Below, one piece after another: positions 1 to 47,331 of a stretch of DNA of 64,000 nt. The translations under genes were made by a program, and so were the position numbers. The notes beneath the pieces were generated by a model. It was not told the DNA's origin, did not search any database, and worked only from the letters and a program-made list of their open reading frames with translations. The first letter of the stretch is position 1, and each line of letters starts with the position of its first letter. This DNA comes from a phage, in sequence record PZ445428.1; one strand, 5' to 3'.

Positions 1-162
1 GTTTGTAAACTTGTATTCGGCATAATTTCGTAGACTTAAAATTCCTAGATATTCTGCCAGTTGTCTATTAGACAGTTTGCGTGGATTATCAACTATCGTT
101 GATTCATTCAAAATGAATGAGGAGCCGACCAGCAATTGGTGAGCATCAGGCTCTGCAAGCAT
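1..162 (-). CDS. hypothetical protein, partial (continues beyond window start); HTH-like segment LSNRQLAEYLGIL
   Basis: Minus-strand frame is stop-free from 258 down to 1; ATG at 162, or possible ATT start at 240 placed 9 nt after GAGGAG. Two tandem promoters lie upstream. Absent from ORF track because it is truncated. Confidence 0.4.
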   Translation of the reverse strand, partial: MLAEPDAHQLLVGSSFILNESTIVDNPRKLSNRQLAEYLGILSLRNYAEYKFTN

Positions 163-269
163 TCTATTAAATAACTTAACAATCAGGTCGGAATTTCCTC
201 TAGCTAGTAAGTATAGCTTTTCATAGTCGAAGAATTTAATTTTTGTTTTCTCCTCGAATTTATGTATAT

Positions 270-299
270 ATTATACTAGATTTCGAGAGAATTTAGCAA
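270..299 (-). promoter_or_regulatory. sigma70-type early promoter (TTGCTA-18-TATAAT)
   Basis: Reverse complement reads TTGCTAaattctctcgaaatctagTATAAT followed by ATAAATTCGAGGAG. Confidence 0.6.
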
Positions 300-370
300 G
301 TACAATTTTTATTTTTCTGCTTCGGACTTTCTTATCAATCCGAAACTTTCTCTCTCAAATTTATGTATAT

Positions 371-399
371 ATTATACAATAATTATGAACTGTTGCCAA
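371..399 (-). promoter_or_regulatory. sigma70-type promoter (TTGGCA-17-TATAAT), tandem with 270-299
   Basis: Reverse complement reads TTGGCAacagttcataattattgTATAAT; shares a 20-bp direct repeat (aatttatgtatatattatac) with the promoter at 241-260. Confidence 0.5.
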
Positions 400-1735
400 A
401 TGCAATTTTAGCTAACTGTACTGCTTTCTCCGGAGTCATAGTAATAGTTTTCCATGCATTATTGCGATACACGGCCATACGTCCGGAAGCCTGTCTTAAA
501 CCAGTGCCACCTTTCATAATTAGGTCTACTACTATCGGATCTAACTTCCCATCAACTATACGTTGTACACGACCTGCTAACTGTTCTATTAACGATTCGT
601 TATTAATGAGACTTCCCATTATTAAACAAGACAGCTCGTTAAGAGAAATACCTTCGGAGAAGATACTTTGTGCAGCAGCAAGACAACATGGACCACCTTC
701 TGCTACTTCCTTCTGGATTCGCAGACGATCATCGAGTGGAGTTGCACCAATAATCTCGTAGGTTGTAACACCTCGCTGAGACAGTGCTTCTAGTATCGTT
801 TGTATTAGTTCTGTCCTGTCACTCACAAACAGAACCTTATGTCCCATGTTCACATACAGATGCGCCAGATTAATAATAGTCTGACGATATTCAGGGTTAG
901 AATACACATCATTAGCACGTAAAGCCCACGGAACGTTCTGGTTTCCAGACAATTCAACCGGTACGGAGTACCTGTGGATTGTAGGAGCGACAGTATTATT
1001 AACCGGAGGGCTAAAGATCTTATATCCAAAGAAATCTTTGAACATAACCTGCAAACCATCCTTACGTTTTAACGTACCGGATAGCCCAATCTTGTAGCGG
1101 GCACAGGAAATTTCCAAGAAATTAGTAAATGTAGTTGCAACACAATGGTGAACTTCATCCACAATAACTGTTCCAAACACTTTGGACAGCTGATTAGCGT
1201 GTTTATTTACTGTTTGTATATTACTAACCACAATAGGTGGGTCAATATTATACTTTCCTGAACCAATAACTCCAGGTTCAAACCCAAACCATTTACGAAC
1301 TTCGGCCATCCACATTTCACGGATGGAAGTATTCGTACAGATTACCAGAGTTTTCTGTCCAAACTTATACGCAAGTGCTAATGCTAGGATAGTTTTACCA
1401 AATCCTGGCTTACCATTGATAATGCAGGTATCATCACACTCTTCATAAATAGGTAACTGATCTTCTTCACGCAGTTTAAAAGATGGTTCTGGAATATAAA
1501 CCGGAGCCAATGTGCGTTTATCAACCAGTTCGTACTTCACTCCCTTAGCATCTAGTAAATCCAGACGTGTAATGGGAATCCACTTAATCTCTTTAGCAAC
1601 AACACCGCTATTCTTATACATAATAGGGTATTTACTTGTCATTGTCTCGACATGGTAAGTGGTTTGCTTACTACAATAATCCCAAAGTTCATCATCGGGC
1701 TTGAAATAGGCTTTATTAGATATAACAACCTTCAT
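383..1735 (-). CDS. SF2 DNA helicase (T5 D10-like)
   Basis: Walker A GKPGFGKT and DEVH box VIVDEVHH in a 450-aa ORF adjacent to the DNA polymerase. Confidence 0.8.
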   Translation of the reverse strand: MKVVISNKAYFKPDDELWDYCSKQTTYHVETMTSKYPIMYKNSGVVAKEIKWIPITRLDLLDAKGVKYELVDKRTLAPVYIPEPSFKLREEDQLPIYEECDDTCIINGKPGFGKTILALALAYKFGQKTLVICTNTSIREMWMAEVRKWFGFEPGVIGSGKYNIDPPIVVSNIQTVNKHANQLSKVFGTVIVDEVHHCVATTFTNFLEISCARYKIGLSGTLKRKDGLQVMFKDFFGYKIFSPPVNNTVAPTIHRYSVPVELSGNQNVPWALRANDVYSNPEYRQTIINLAHLYVNMGHKVLFVSDRTELIQTILEALSQRGVTTYEIIGATPLDDRLRIQKEVAEGGPCCLAAAQSIFSEGISLNELSCLIMGSLINNESLIEQLAGRVQRIVDGKLDPIVVDLIMKGGTGLRQASGRMAVYRNNAWKTITMTPEKAVQLAKIAFGNSS

Positions 1736-12436: not shown

Positions 12437-12467
12437 TTAAATACTCCTCTCTCAAATTTATGAATCT

Positions 12468-34987: not shown

Positions 34988-35016
34988 TTGCTAAATGCTT
35001 CAAAAGTTGATATAAT
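34988..35016 (+). promoter_or_regulatory. sigma70 early promoter driving the ORF-free structured region
   Basis: TTGCTAaatgcttcaaaagttgaTATAAT. Confidence 0.6.
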
Positions 35017-35021
35017 AGTTA

Positions 35022-36144
35022 CATAAATTAGAGAGAACAGCGAGCCGATTACGCTGAGTGCAGAATCCCAACCGGAGCGCATTGAATAGAGTCGGTGAGT
35101 TGTACTAGGATTCCTGATTAGAGAGGTTCCAGGCACCGCAGGGTTTACTCTGTACCGCTTCCAGCTATCGATATCAGGAATGAATAGTGCGCAAAACTCG
35201 GGAGCTGTCCCGAAACCTCGTAAACTCTTCTCTCTAATTTAATTAAACGATGGATCTCAGCACGAGCCAGTCACAGTGTGAAACATGGTGCGTGACCCAG
35301 GGGTAGAAGACTAGGAGTTGGCTTGAGAAACCCATGTAACTCCTAACGCTGACCCGTCTAGGTTGCAAATCGAGACATGTGTATATCACAATGAGGTAAG
35401 TGACCATCAAATAGTGGGTAGCGTAATTTTTAGGTGAATGATGGAGGTCTAACGACTGAGGGCATCATCTCGGGATTACCAGCCACGAAATAGTGGGGTG
35501 TCGAACTGACTTATGTAATAACACTGCCGTCCTAGTATAAACGGTAATATCAAGCCGTAACTGGTGGAAGATGTAGGTTCGAATCCTACGGTCGGTAAGA
35601 ATTAGATAACTCGGGCTTATACCGGATAAGCATTCGCTGCGGAAGTACATACTATGACGGTTCAGGAGGTACGCCGCCTGATCAGTATGAGGTTAGAATC
35701 GAAACCGCTAAACCACGAGGAAACCTGACGGCCTCAGCCAAACTCGGAAACTCAGGATCGCTGCTTAGTGCGTGCCCTGTTTTAACCTAGAGACTAAGCA
35801 CTCCAGCTTCGCATCGAAAATCGGAGGTGCGATTCTACTAGACCGCGTAACTATGAGAGGGGGAAATGCTCACATGAAACATGTGACTAATGGTGCACAA
35901 TAGAACAGGTAAACGCGATAAGTCCTGTTGAGTAGCAGCAGAAGGCTGGGAGTCATGACCTGAGCCTAACCGAGTTCTCCACATAGGGAGGACATAACCA
36001 CGAAGTCACCTTGACTTAAACTGGAAGATATTGTCTGACGGCAGGGCTGAAGAGCTTAATCTGAGGGGGCTGACCCTACCTACCGCCGGGTATCTTTAAG
36101 AGCTTTTGAGAGAGTTCTTAAAAATACCTAACAAAATCTATTTT
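35022..36144 (+). ncRNA. candidate structured stable RNA(s) or tRNA-like elements, about 1.1 kb ORF-free
   Basis: No ORF on either strand apart from one spurious minus ORF; higher GC; many hairpins (TAGGAGTT...AACTCCTA; AGAGAGAA...TTCTCTCT about 200 nt apart); T-arm-like GTAGGTTCGAATCCTAC at 35573-35589. Confidence 0.4.
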
Positions 36145-42033: not shown

Positions 42034-42061
42034 TGCTAATTGCCGAAATTTTCTGTATAAT
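42034..42061 (+). promoter_or_regulatory. sigma70 promoter driving tRNAs
   Basis: TTGCTAattgccgaaattttctgTATAAT; tRNA-Ser starts about 15 nt downstream. Confidence 0.6.
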
Positions 42062-42075
42062 ATATTCATAAATTC

Positions 42076-47077: not shown

Positions 47078-47331
47078 TTTCTTGTTATAATATTTATATA
47101 AATTGATGGGGAGAAATCCTCATCAAAGTTCACTAAGGTATTAGCTCGACCTAGGACTGGCTGCCACCAAGCACGATCCCTACGACTCGGGAGAAGTTCT
47201 AGATTAGTCCACTAGATTCAGCGGCAACTGAATAGTGTATCGGGTTTGTGAAGAGCGGGTATCCAAGCCTGGCTAATGGCACTGGGTATTACGCACACCG
47301 AGCTAATAGCCTTAGTAAACTTGAAGAATTT

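What the first reader, a model, noticed from the sequence alone, without database searches (positions are those of the whole stretch)
1..400. Partial gene with possible ATT start and tandem duplicated promoters
A stop-free minus-strand frame runs off the window start. The position where other promoter modules place ATG (9 nt after GAGGAG) holds ATT here; the next ATG is 26 codons downstream. Two promoters sharing a 20-bp direct repeat sit in tandem upstream, the distal one overlapping the helicase 3' end.
Basis: seen in the sequence. Interest (0 to 1): 0.35.

Follow-up and report, generated by a model that had tools for sequence, protein, structure and literature searches.

The report
T5-type phage gene starting at ATT
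A small, conserved early gene of this T5-like phage almost certainly begins at the rare start codon ATT rather than at the ATG used in public annotations, so its protein is recorded 26 residues too short in every T5-type record I examined, out of about 216 that carry this gene version; the two promoters in front of it are already annotated in phage T5.

Summary
The window is Escherichia phage TrudiGerster, a T5-like phage. Downstream of helicase D10 lies the homologue of T5.125 (PHROG 4258), annotated from ATG at 162-160 as 94 aa.

Evidence that the gene starts at ATT (240-238), giving 120 aa:
- Orthologues down to 35-55% identity align from residue 1, with ATG, GTG or TTG at exactly that codon.
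- The PHROG profile is 120 positions long and matches 1-120.
- About half of the close GenBank relatives (221 records, Seafire type) have ATG there. The other 216 (T5 type) have ATT.
- Within ATT carriers, codons 2-26 show 8 synonymous and 3 non-synonymous variants, the same constraint as the rest of the gene.
- ATT follows GAGGAG by 9 nt (-8.9 kcal/mol). The annotated ATG has no Shine-Dalgarno sequence (-0.9).
- AlphaFold predicts residues 1-29 as a confident strand and two helices.
- A second lineage (55% identity) also pairs ATT with AAGGAG.

The tandem promoters are T5's annotated P31A and P31B. The 20-nt repeat is the core of the general T5 early-promoter module, which occurs 21 times in the window.

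Verdict: a probable natural AUU start that is systematically mis-annotated. It is a new member of a known kind, of moderate interest. Initiation at AUU was not tested directly.

The parts
1..240 (-). First 80 of 120 codons of the T5.125 / PHROG 4258 homologue (bas27_0030), counted from the ATT. The remaining 40 codons lie beyond the window start.
   Evidence: sequence and full gene in L001. (PHROG 4258, E=8e-61, protein 1-120 on profile 1-120 of 120). (orthologues align from residue 1).
238..240 (-). ATT (AUU), the proposed true start codon.
   Evidence: Homologous to ATG in Seafire-type phages. Homologous to ATG, GTG or TTG in Klebsiella, Pectobacterium, Serratia-like and Vibrio phage orthologues. 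No canonical start lies between the upstream in-frame TAA and this codon.
250..255 (-). Shine-Dalgarno sequence GAGGAG, 9 nt upstream of the ATT.
   Evidence: Anti-SD duplex -8.9 kcal/mol, as strong as the best SDs of the 16 other early modules (-5.6 to -9.1).
160..162 (-). ATG, codon 27. This is the start used in GenBank annotations (94-aa product) and is probably an internal methionine.
   Evidence: annotations. No SD upstream (-0.9 kcal/mol). The residue is M or L in orthologues.
263..299 (-). Proximal early promoter, homologue of T5 P31B. -35 TTGCTA at 299-294, -10 TATAAT at 275-270, inferred +1 near 263.
   Evidence: 10 of 12 match, 18-nt spacer. (T5 record annotates P31B at the homologous place). 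(annotated as 'early promoter T5P38'). The +1 is inferred from the T5 N25-type module (own knowledge).
304..318 (-). A-rich tract AGAAAAATAAAAATT directly upstream of the proximal -35, UP-element-like.
   Evidence: an AAAAATT tract precedes the -35 in nearly all modules. Conserved in relatives.
319..346 (-). Hairpin GTTTCGGA-12 nt-TCCGAAGC between the two promoters. Not followed by a U-run, so not an intrinsic terminator.
   Evidence: stem predicted. (0 terminator-like sites). (about -14 kcal/mol for the folded inter-promoter segment in T5 and Seafire types, but the hairpin is not conserved in most other lineages).
364..399 (-). Distal early promoter, homologue of T5 P31A. -35 TTGGCA at 399-394 inside the helicase 3' end, -10 TATAAT at 376-371, inferred +1 near 364. 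It is followed by a degenerate SD-like GAGAGAGAAAG (356-346) with no ORF.
   Evidence: 11 of 12 match, 17-nt spacer. (P31A annotated in T5). ('repeat c copy 7'). (nearly invariant among 32 relatives).
257..276 (-). Proximal copy of the exact 20-nt repeat GTATAATATATACATAAATT (-10 plus initial transcribed sequence).
358..377 (-). Distal copy of the same 20-nt repeat.
383..1735 (-). Helicase D10 gene (450 aa). Its last six codons carry the -35 of the distal promoter.

Best explanation
The gene downstream of helicase D10 is the T5.125 / PHROG 4258 homologue. It encodes a 120-residue, weakly winged-helix-like protein of unknown function in the replication gene block.

Shown by comparison:
- The reading frame begins at the codon occupied by ATT (window 240-238).
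- The N-terminal 26 residues are part of the protein.
- The 94-aa product from ATG 162-160 annotated in GenBank is an artefact of gene callers that accept only ATG, GTG or TTG.

Inferred:
- Ribosomes are positioned by the strong GAGGAG Shine-Dalgarno sequence 9 nt upstream and initiate with fMet-tRNA on AUU.
- AUU is a near-cognate start that gives roughly 1-2% of AUG output in E. coli reporters and is discriminated against by IF3.
- The gene is therefore translated at a low level although it sits behind very strong promoters.
- The sister allele reaches a similar end differently, with ATG behind a very weak SD.

Transcription comes from two tandem sigma-70 early promoters 101 nt apart, equivalent to T5 P31A and P31B. 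The distal transcript reads through the hairpin and the proximal promoter into the same gene and on to D11, D12 and D13. The 20-nt repeat is the conserved -10 plus initial-transcribed core of the T5 N25-type early-promoter module.
For: 1. Homology of the start position. tblastn with the 120-aa product finds 907 phage records, of which 905 cover at least 80% of the query. Nearly all rows inspected start at residue 1 and the rest at residue 4. Orthologues in Klebsiella, Pectobacterium and Vibrio phages are annotated from a codon exactly homologous to the ATT. Metagenomic homologues are mostly 116-122 aa.

2. PHROG 4258 is 120 positions long and matches 1-120.

3. ATT/ATG dimorphism. In alignment A3, 25 sequences have ATT and 7 have ATG at the same column. 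In GenBank, 216 records carry the T5-type (ATT) cassette and 221 the Seafire-type (ATG) cassette.

4. Purifying selection within ATT carriers.
- Codons 2-26 show 8 synonymous and 3 non-synonymous variants, over 16 synonymous and 59 non-synonymous sites (binomial P = 4e-4).
- This is indistinguishable from codons 27-120 (25 and 13).
- There are no indels or stops.
- The shifted frames give 7:14 and 1:20.
- T5-type and Seafire-type alleles differ at 22% of nucleotides in codons 1-26, yet at only a handful of conservative residues.

5. Ribosome binding sites. GAGGAG-N9-ATT gives -8.9 kcal/mol, while the annotated ATG27 gives -0.9. The geometry equals that of 16 other early modules in the window, nearly all called at ATG, 27-40 nt from the -10.

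6. Independent recurrence. A lineage at 55% identity (L043) has AAGGAG-N7-ATT at the same codon, while its nearest relatives have TTG. An environmental relative (L215) has ATA behind GAGGGGA.

7. Structure. The AlphaFold model has pLDDT 93.4. Residues 1-29 are at pLDDT 96-97 and form a strand plus two helices.

8. Promoters. Consensus matches, T5 record features P31A and P31B, and the module census.

9. Literature. AUU starts are confirmed for only infC and pcnB in E. coli, and AUU gives 1-2% of AUG (bioRxiv 10.1101/063800).
Against: - There is no direct evidence of initiation at AUU: no N-terminal peptide, toeprint or ribosome profiling. I found no paper on T5.125 function or on T5 ribosome profiling.
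- Diversity within ATT carriers is low (about 1.9%). Only 11 variants lie in codons 2-26, and about four of them, in TrudiGerster, may be imports by recombination from ATG-type alleles. Without TrudiGerster the count is 6 synonymous to 1 non-synonymous.
- The census of 216 records rests on identity over 100 nt (at most 1 mismatch in 199 of them), not on reading each start codon.
- 'Kept low' is an inference. Some distant lineages combine a strong SD with ATG (L209-L214).
- Both transcription start sites are inferred from consensus, not measured here.
Confidence: 0.8

Rival explanations
1. In T5-type phages the ATG-to-ATT change inactivated the original start. The phage now makes only the 94-aa protein from ATG27, as annotated, and the 26 upstream codons are an untranslated relic.
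For: Every T5-type GenBank record inspected annotates the 285-nt CDS. M27 is present in most enterobacterial-phage orthologues. AUU is a poor initiator.
Against: - Codons 2-26 evolve under the same synonymous bias as the rest of the gene within ATT carriers, with no indel or stop in 25 or more sequences, despite 22% divergence from the ATG allele.
- ATG27 has no SD (-0.9 kcal/mol), while a strong SD sits before the ATT.
- The truncated form would lack strand 1 and helices 1-2 of a compact, confidently predicted domain.
- A second, divergent ATT lineage also keeps an intact N-terminus.
Confidence: 0.08
2. Both products are made: a 120-aa form from AUU and a 94-aa form from ATG27. The ratio is set by which promoter is used or by IF3 availability.
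For: - Two tandem promoters give two different 5' leaders.
- In the distal (P31A) transcript, the proximal-promoter spacer UUCUCUCGAA can pair with the SD UUCGAGGAGAA (z -2.5 to -3.0).
- In several relatives the proximal -10 abuts the start codon, so proximal transcripts there cannot encode the full protein.
Against: - ATG27 lacks an SD and is not conserved as Met outside the enterobacterial clade.
- The SD-masking structure is specific to the T5-type cassette and is not supported by covariation.
- No data show two products.
Confidence: 0.07
3. The distal promoter module is a non-functional leftover, an orphan copy of the early-promoter repeat left by gene loss or duplication. Only the proximal promoter is used.
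For: The distal module has a degenerate SD-like GAGAGAGAAAG and no ORF or tRNA behind it. Vibrio phages Noelle and pVp-1 have an extra gene between the helicase and this gene. One T5 record labels the distal module only as 'repeat c copy 7'.
Against: - It is the better consensus match (11 of 12, 17-nt spacer).
- It is almost invariant across both cassette types (5% between-group divergence, against 38-53% in the proximal spacer and SD).
- It is annotated as promoter P31A in NC_005859.
- Its homologue is the only promoter in front of the gene in the Pectobacterium phage and in L201.
- Tandem modules at 92-117 nt spacing recur across the family.
Confidence: 0.15

Closest known systems
E. coli infC (IF3) and pcnB (poly(A) polymerase), the two confirmed AUU-initiated genes
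   Same: An in-frame AUU at the start position, preceded by a Shine-Dalgarno sequence. Orthologues elsewhere use canonical starts. The expected consequence is low, IF3-sensitive translation (bioRxiv 10.1101/063800; IF3 discrimination also in PMC9723500, abstract).
   Different: - This is a phage early gene, not a host gene.
- No feedback logic is evident, because the product is not a translation factor.
- The AUU coexists in nature with an AUG allele that has a weak SD, at about 1:1 in sequenced phages.
- Initiation at the AUU has not been shown experimentally.
Phage T5 promoters P31A and P31B, and the T5 N25-type early-promoter module
   Same: The position is homologous to features annotated in NC_005859. 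The build is the same: an A-rich tract, TTGCT-like -35, 17-18 nt, TATAAT, ATAT-type discriminator, then ATAAATT-GAGAGG. The ATATT discriminator is reported as typical of T5 early promoters in PMC7472727. Module 12455 in this window looks like the N25 homologue (N25 sequence from my own knowledge).
   Different: Nothing essential. TrudiGerster is an Epseptimavirus that carries the T5-type version of the proximal cassette. No experimental TSS data for P31A or P31B were found in the searchable literature.
T5.125 / PHROG 4258 hypothetical proteins
   Same: Full-length match, same synteny between helicase D10 and the ssDNA-binding protein D11.
   Different: The deposited T5-type members are 94 aa. 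The family profile and most other members are 116-122 aa.

Membership tests
AUU-initiated protein-coding gene (infC/pcnB kind) | In-frame AUU with no canonical start between the upstream stop and it, in an otherwise open frame | tested here: met
   TAA, then TAT ATA CAT AAA TTC GAG GAG AAA ACA AAA, then ATT. There is no ATG, GTG or TTG among these codons.
AUU-initiated protein-coding gene (infC/pcnB kind) | Shine-Dalgarno sequence at functional spacing from the AUU | tested here: met
   GAGGAG 9 nt upstream, anti-SD duplex -8.9 kcal/mol.
AUU-initiated protein-coding gene (infC/pcnB kind) | Orthologues start with a canonical codon at the homologous position | tested here: met
   ATG in Seafire-type phages, GTG in Vibrio phage D30 and L201, TTG in L165 and L044, ATG in Klebsiella, Pectobacterium and other Vibrio phages.
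AUU-initiated protein-coding gene (infC/pcnB kind) | Sequence between the AUU and the next AUG evolves as coding sequence in AUU carriers | tested here: met
   8 synonymous and 3 non-synonymous variants, P = 4e-4, no indels or stops. The sample is small.
AUU-initiated protein-coding gene (infC/pcnB kind) | Direct demonstration of initiation at AUU (N-terminal peptide, toeprint, initiation profiling) and IF3 dependence | not testable with these tools
   No proteomic or ribosome-profiling data for T5-like phages were found.
T5 early (N25-type) sigma-70 promoter | -35 TTGCT-like, 17-18 nt spacer, -10 TATAAT, upstream A/T tract | tested here: met
   (10 of 12 and 11 of 12 matches). (alignment of 21 modules).
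T5 early (N25-type) sigma-70 promoter | Conserved discriminator and initial transcribed sequence (ATAT..ATAAATT, then GAGAGG) | tested here: met
   (21 copies against 0.07 expected). Discriminator consensus from PMC7472727.
T5 early (N25-type) sigma-70 promoter | Measured transcription start and early timing | not testable with these tools
   Only annotation-level support (P31A and P31B in NC_005859).
PHROG 4258 (T5.125 family) | Significant full-length match to the family profile | tested here: met
   E = 8.3e-61, protein 1-120 on profile 1-120 of 120.
Winged-helix DNA-binding proteins | Significant structural or sequence match to a winged-helix domain | tested here: inconclusive
Intrinsic terminator (considered for the hairpin between the promoters) | GC-rich stem followed by a U-run on the transcribed strand | tested here: not met
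   The stem is followed by AGAAAAAUAAAAAUU. The scan found 0 terminator-like sites.
Leaderless mRNA (considered because of relatives) | Start codon at or within a few nucleotides of the transcription start | tested here: not met
   In this window the inferred leader is 23 nt (263 to 241). Only relatives have the start 0-4 nt after the -10.

The most novel reading that the evidence does not exclude
The initiation region of this replication-block gene is a hotspot where phages repeatedly evolve ways to throttle translation behind very strong promoters. Four solutions are seen in the enterobacterial and Vibrio phage clade:
- AUU or AUA with a strong SD (T5 type, L043, possibly L215).
- GUG with a strong SD.
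- AUG with a very weak SD (Seafire type).
- A start codon placed 0-4 nt after the proximal -10, so that only transcripts from an upstream tandem promoter can encode the protein.

On this reading the product is dosage-critical. In T5-type phages its synthesis is IF3-sensitive, and perhaps promoter-specific through masking of the SD in the P31A transcript. That would give a post-transcriptional timing or dosage control in T5 early gene expression that has not been described.
Probability: 0.25. Interest if true: 0.55.

Novelty: new member of a known kind. Interest (0 to 1): 0.4.

Why it matters
- Annotation. About 216 GenBank genomes carry the T5-type cassette, including the reference phages T5 and BF23. 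Every record of this type that I examined lists the protein 26 residues short, without a strand and two helices of its fold. Structure, interaction or knockout work based on those annotations would use a truncated protein.
- Biology. Confirmed AUU starts are very rare, with two in E. coli. This would be a natural one in a classical model phage. It comes with a ready-made natural comparison: the ATT, strong-SD allele against the ATG, weak-SD allele, at about 1:1 in sequenced phages. That comparison could be used to study how start-codon and SD strength trade off.
- Limits. The promoters themselves are not new.

Tried and rejected
- Metagenome scan with AAATTCTTYGAYTAYGARA. The pattern was too unspecific: 120 mostly chance hits, of which only 2 were real T5-like loci (L089, L125, both ATT).
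- Hypothesis that a homing-endonuclease gene sits between the two promoters in some phages and explains the tandem arrangement. Rejected: in AKM_ECS the HNH gene replaces the helicase 3' end upstream of both promoters.
- Hairpin as a terminator or conserved RNA element. Rejected: no U-run, no Rfam match, and not conserved outside the T5, Seafire and Klebsiella-phage types.
- 'Every lineage is translationally handicapped'. Rejected as a universal rule: L209-L214 have a strong SD plus ATG.
- Search for the Proteus phage orthologue (92 aa in BFVD), to test for another non-canonical start. It was not reached: one search returned Serratia and Salmonella phages instead.
- Literature searches for T5.125, T5 ribosome profiling and phage ATT starts gave nothing specific.
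Full report
**Identity of the region.** The window matches Escherichia phage TrudiGerster at 100% (MZ501108, BASEL collection, Demerecviridae, Epseptimavirus). On the minus strand the order is:
- DNA polymerase
- a 165-aa ORF
- helicase D10 (1735-383)
- a 142-nt spacer up to the ATT (220 nt up to the annotated ATG)
- a small gene annotated as bas27_0030, which runs off the window start
- the ssDNA-binding protein D11

In phage T5 the small gene is T5.125.

**The observation.**
- GAGGAG lies at 255-250, a 9-nt spacer follows, and ATT is at 240-238.
- An in-frame TAA lies 11 codons upstream, with no ATG, GTG or TTG in between.
- The next in-frame ATG is codon 27 (162-160).
- The proximal promoter is TTGCTA, 18 nt, TATAAT (299-270).
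- The distal promoter is TTGGCA, 17 nt, TATAAT (399-371). Its -35 lies in the last helicase codons (stop at 385-383).
- An exact 20-nt repeat, GTATAATATATACATAAATT, lies at 276-257 and 377-358.

**What the repeat is.** The 19-mer core occurs 21 times in the window at up to 3 mismatches, against 0.07 expected. Aligning the 21 sites shows one module: an A-rich tract, a TTGCT-like -35, 17-18 nt, TATAAT, an ATAT-type discriminator, ATAAATT, a GAGAGG-type SD, then a start codon.
- This is the T5 early-promoter module. The ATATT discriminator is noted in PMC7472727. The copy at 12455 looks like the classical N25 promoter (my own knowledge).
- In 16 modules an ORF of at least 40 codons opens 27-40 nt after the -10, with SD strength -5.6 to -9.1 kcal/mol. 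The script called 15 at ATG. The sixteenth (8852) was called at a TTG that sits directly before an ATG.
- Three modules precede tRNA genes.
- The proximal module here has the standard geometry (29 nt, -8.9 kcal/mol) but ATT in place of ATG.
- The distal module has a degenerate GAGAGAGAAAG and nothing behind it except a hairpin, the A-tract and the next promoter.
- The T5 reference record annotates the two promoters as P31A and P31B. Another T5 record calls them 'repeat c copy 7' and 'early promoter T5P38'. The tandem promoters are therefore already known.

**Is ATT the start? Homology.** tblastn with the 120-residue product found 907 phage records, and 905 cover at least 80% of it. Nearly all rows shown begin at residue 1, and the remaining Vibrio rows begin at residue 4.
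- In Klebsiella phage Roth50 (71% identity), Pectobacterium DU_PP_V (55%) and Vibrio phages PG07, D30 and Noelle (45-53%), the deposited CDS begins exactly at the homologous codon. In pVp-1 (42%) an ATG sits at that codon, but the deposited CDS starts downstream (67 aa).
- That codon is ATG or GTG in these phages.
- Metagenomic homologues are mostly 116-122 aa.
- PHROG 4258 is 120 positions long and matches 1-120.

**Is ATT the start? The ATG allele in close relatives.** Among close relatives there are two alleles of the initiation cassette.
- The T5 type has TTGCTA...GAGGAG-N9-ATT.
- The Seafire type has TTGTCA...GATGAGAGAC-N4-ATG.
- In GenBank, 216 records carry the first and 221 the second.
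- Under the T5-type segment no CDS is annotated. Under the Seafire-type segment one is.
- Every T5-type record inspected starts the gene at ATG27: T5 (two records), BF23, Lindwurm, TrudiGerster and AKM_ECS.

**Is ATT the start? Selection.**
- Among 25 ATT carriers, codons 2-26 show 8 synonymous and 3 non-synonymous variants, over 16 synonymous and 59 non-synonymous sites (P = 4e-4).
- Codons 27-120 show the same pattern (25 and 13).
- There are no second-position changes, indels or stops. Shifted frames give 7:14 and 1:20.
- The two alleles differ at 22% of nucleotides in codons 1-26, but at only a handful of conservative residues.
- Indels in the A-run spacer just upstream of ATT (L024, L028) are tolerated, as expected for an untranslated spacer.

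**Is ATT the start? Ribosome binding site, recurrence and structure.**
- ATG27 has no SD (-0.9 kcal/mol), against -8.9 before the ATT.
- A lineage at 55% identity (L043, a 66-kb Logan contig) has AAGGAG-N7-ATT at the same codon with an intact N-terminus. Its nearest relatives have TTG.
- An environmental relative at 35% identity (L215) has ATA behind GAGGGGA.
- AlphaFold on a 17-sequence alignment gives pLDDT 93.4 and pTM 0.86. Residues 1-29 form a strand and two helices at pLDDT 96-97.

Together these make the 94-aa annotation very unlikely to be the real product.

**How it probably works.** This part is inference.
- AUU is a near-cognate start. Only infC and pcnB are confirmed to use it in E. 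coli, and reporters give 1-2% of AUG (10.1101/063800).
- The ATT lineages have the strongest SDs of the gene family in the enterobacterial and Vibrio phage clade (-8.9 and -8.7). GTG goes with -7.9 and -6.9.
- ATG goes mostly with very weak SDs (-2.4 to -4.0), weaker than any of the 16 other early modules of this phage.
- This suggests that output of this protein is held low behind strong promoters.
- The rule is not universal: distant lineages L209-L214 have a strong SD plus ATG.
- Divergence between the cassettes peaks sharply at the proximal-promoter spacer (38%) and the SD (53%), against 5% upstream and 9% downstream. The two alleles are therefore old, exchangeable modules rather than point mutants.
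- TrudiGerster is an Epseptimavirus with the T5-type cassette.

**Tandem promoters in the wider family.**
- One to three early modules precede the gene at 92-117 nt spacing.
- The Pectobacterium phage and L201 have only the helicase-overlapping module, the P31A homologue. Module number has therefore changed by duplication or loss.
- In several lineages the proximal TATAAT lies 0-4 nt from the start codon. Proximal transcripts there cannot contain the start, so only upstream-promoter transcripts can encode the protein.
- In T5-type phages both transcripts contain the RBS.
- In the distal transcript a segment of the proximal spacer (UUCUCUCGAA) can pair with the SD (z -2.5 to -3.0). This pairing is not seen in the Seafire type and I treat it as a lead only.
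- The hairpin at 346-319 is not a terminator and is not conserved widely. No Rfam family matches.

**Verdict.** The promoters are already known. The ATT start appears to be unrecognised in the deposited annotations and is a new member of a known, rare kind. My confidence in the AUU start is about 0.8, pending direct evidence.

Noticed in passing
Relatives L165, L167, L168, L169, L170, L031, L044 (start codon at locus 401 or 601): The proximal promoter's TATAAT lies only 0-4 nt upstream of the start codon (for example TATAAT-ATG in L168 and L169, TATAAT-A-TTG in L165). A transcript from that promoter would begin inside the coding sequence. In these lineages the full protein can only come from an upstream tandem promoter, with the G-rich extended -10 region (AGGA, GGTG) possibly serving as the SD.
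   Followed up: partly
window 247-289 (minus strand): Inverted repeat TTCTCTCGAA (289-280, in the P31B spacer) and TTCGAGGAGAA (257-247, covering the SD), flanking the -10 and the start site. In the P31A read-through RNA it is predicted to sequester the SD (z -2.5 to -3.0). It could equally be an operator for a dimeric DNA-binding protein. It is specific to the T5-type cassette.
   Followed up: partly
L040 605-1135 (Salmonella phage AKM_ECS); also L007 and L008: An HNH endonuclease gene is inserted at the very 3' end of the helicase gene and replaces its last codons. The sequence from AAAATTGCATTTGGCAAC (the P31A -35 region) onward is preserved intact.
   Followed up: partly
window 35011-35029, 42056-42074, 47086-47104 (+ strand): Three early-promoter modules have no ORF behind them. 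They precede tRNA genes. Rfam finds 29 tRNAs between 35.5 and 50.4 kb, and one begins about 2 nt after the 19-mer core of module 42056, about 8 nt after the inferred +1.
   Followed up: partly
window 160-240, compared with alignment A3 columns 189-270: TrudiGerster's allele looks recombinant. The promoter, SD, ATT and first ~18 codons are T5-type, while from about codon 19 onward the sequence follows the Seafire (Epseptimavirus) type.
   Followed up: no
Hits H3, H20 and others: Records named as Corynebacterium, Listeria and Campylobacter phages carry 91-97% identical T5-like sequence. They are probably contaminated or mislabelled entries.
   Followed up: no
L036 760-963 (Vibrio phage pVp-1); BFVD A0A2H4PRI8 (Proteus phage PM135, 92 aa): Other family members are also deposited truncated. 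pVp-1 is annotated as 67 aa although an ATG sits at the homologous start (locus 601). The Proteus phage case was not examined and could be another non-canonical start.
   Followed up: no
L215 450-452 (IMG/VR contig 3300028829_003282): ATA sits at the homologous start codon behind GAGGGGA-N5. The only in-frame canonical codon upstream (TTG) lies inside the putative promoter. This may be a third near-cognate start in the family.
   Followed up: partly
L001 3316-3323 (just beyond the window start): The small gene's last codons overlap the D11 start by 8 nt (ATGGCTAA). D11 has its own SD (GAGGAA, -6.2 kcal/mol).
   Followed up: no
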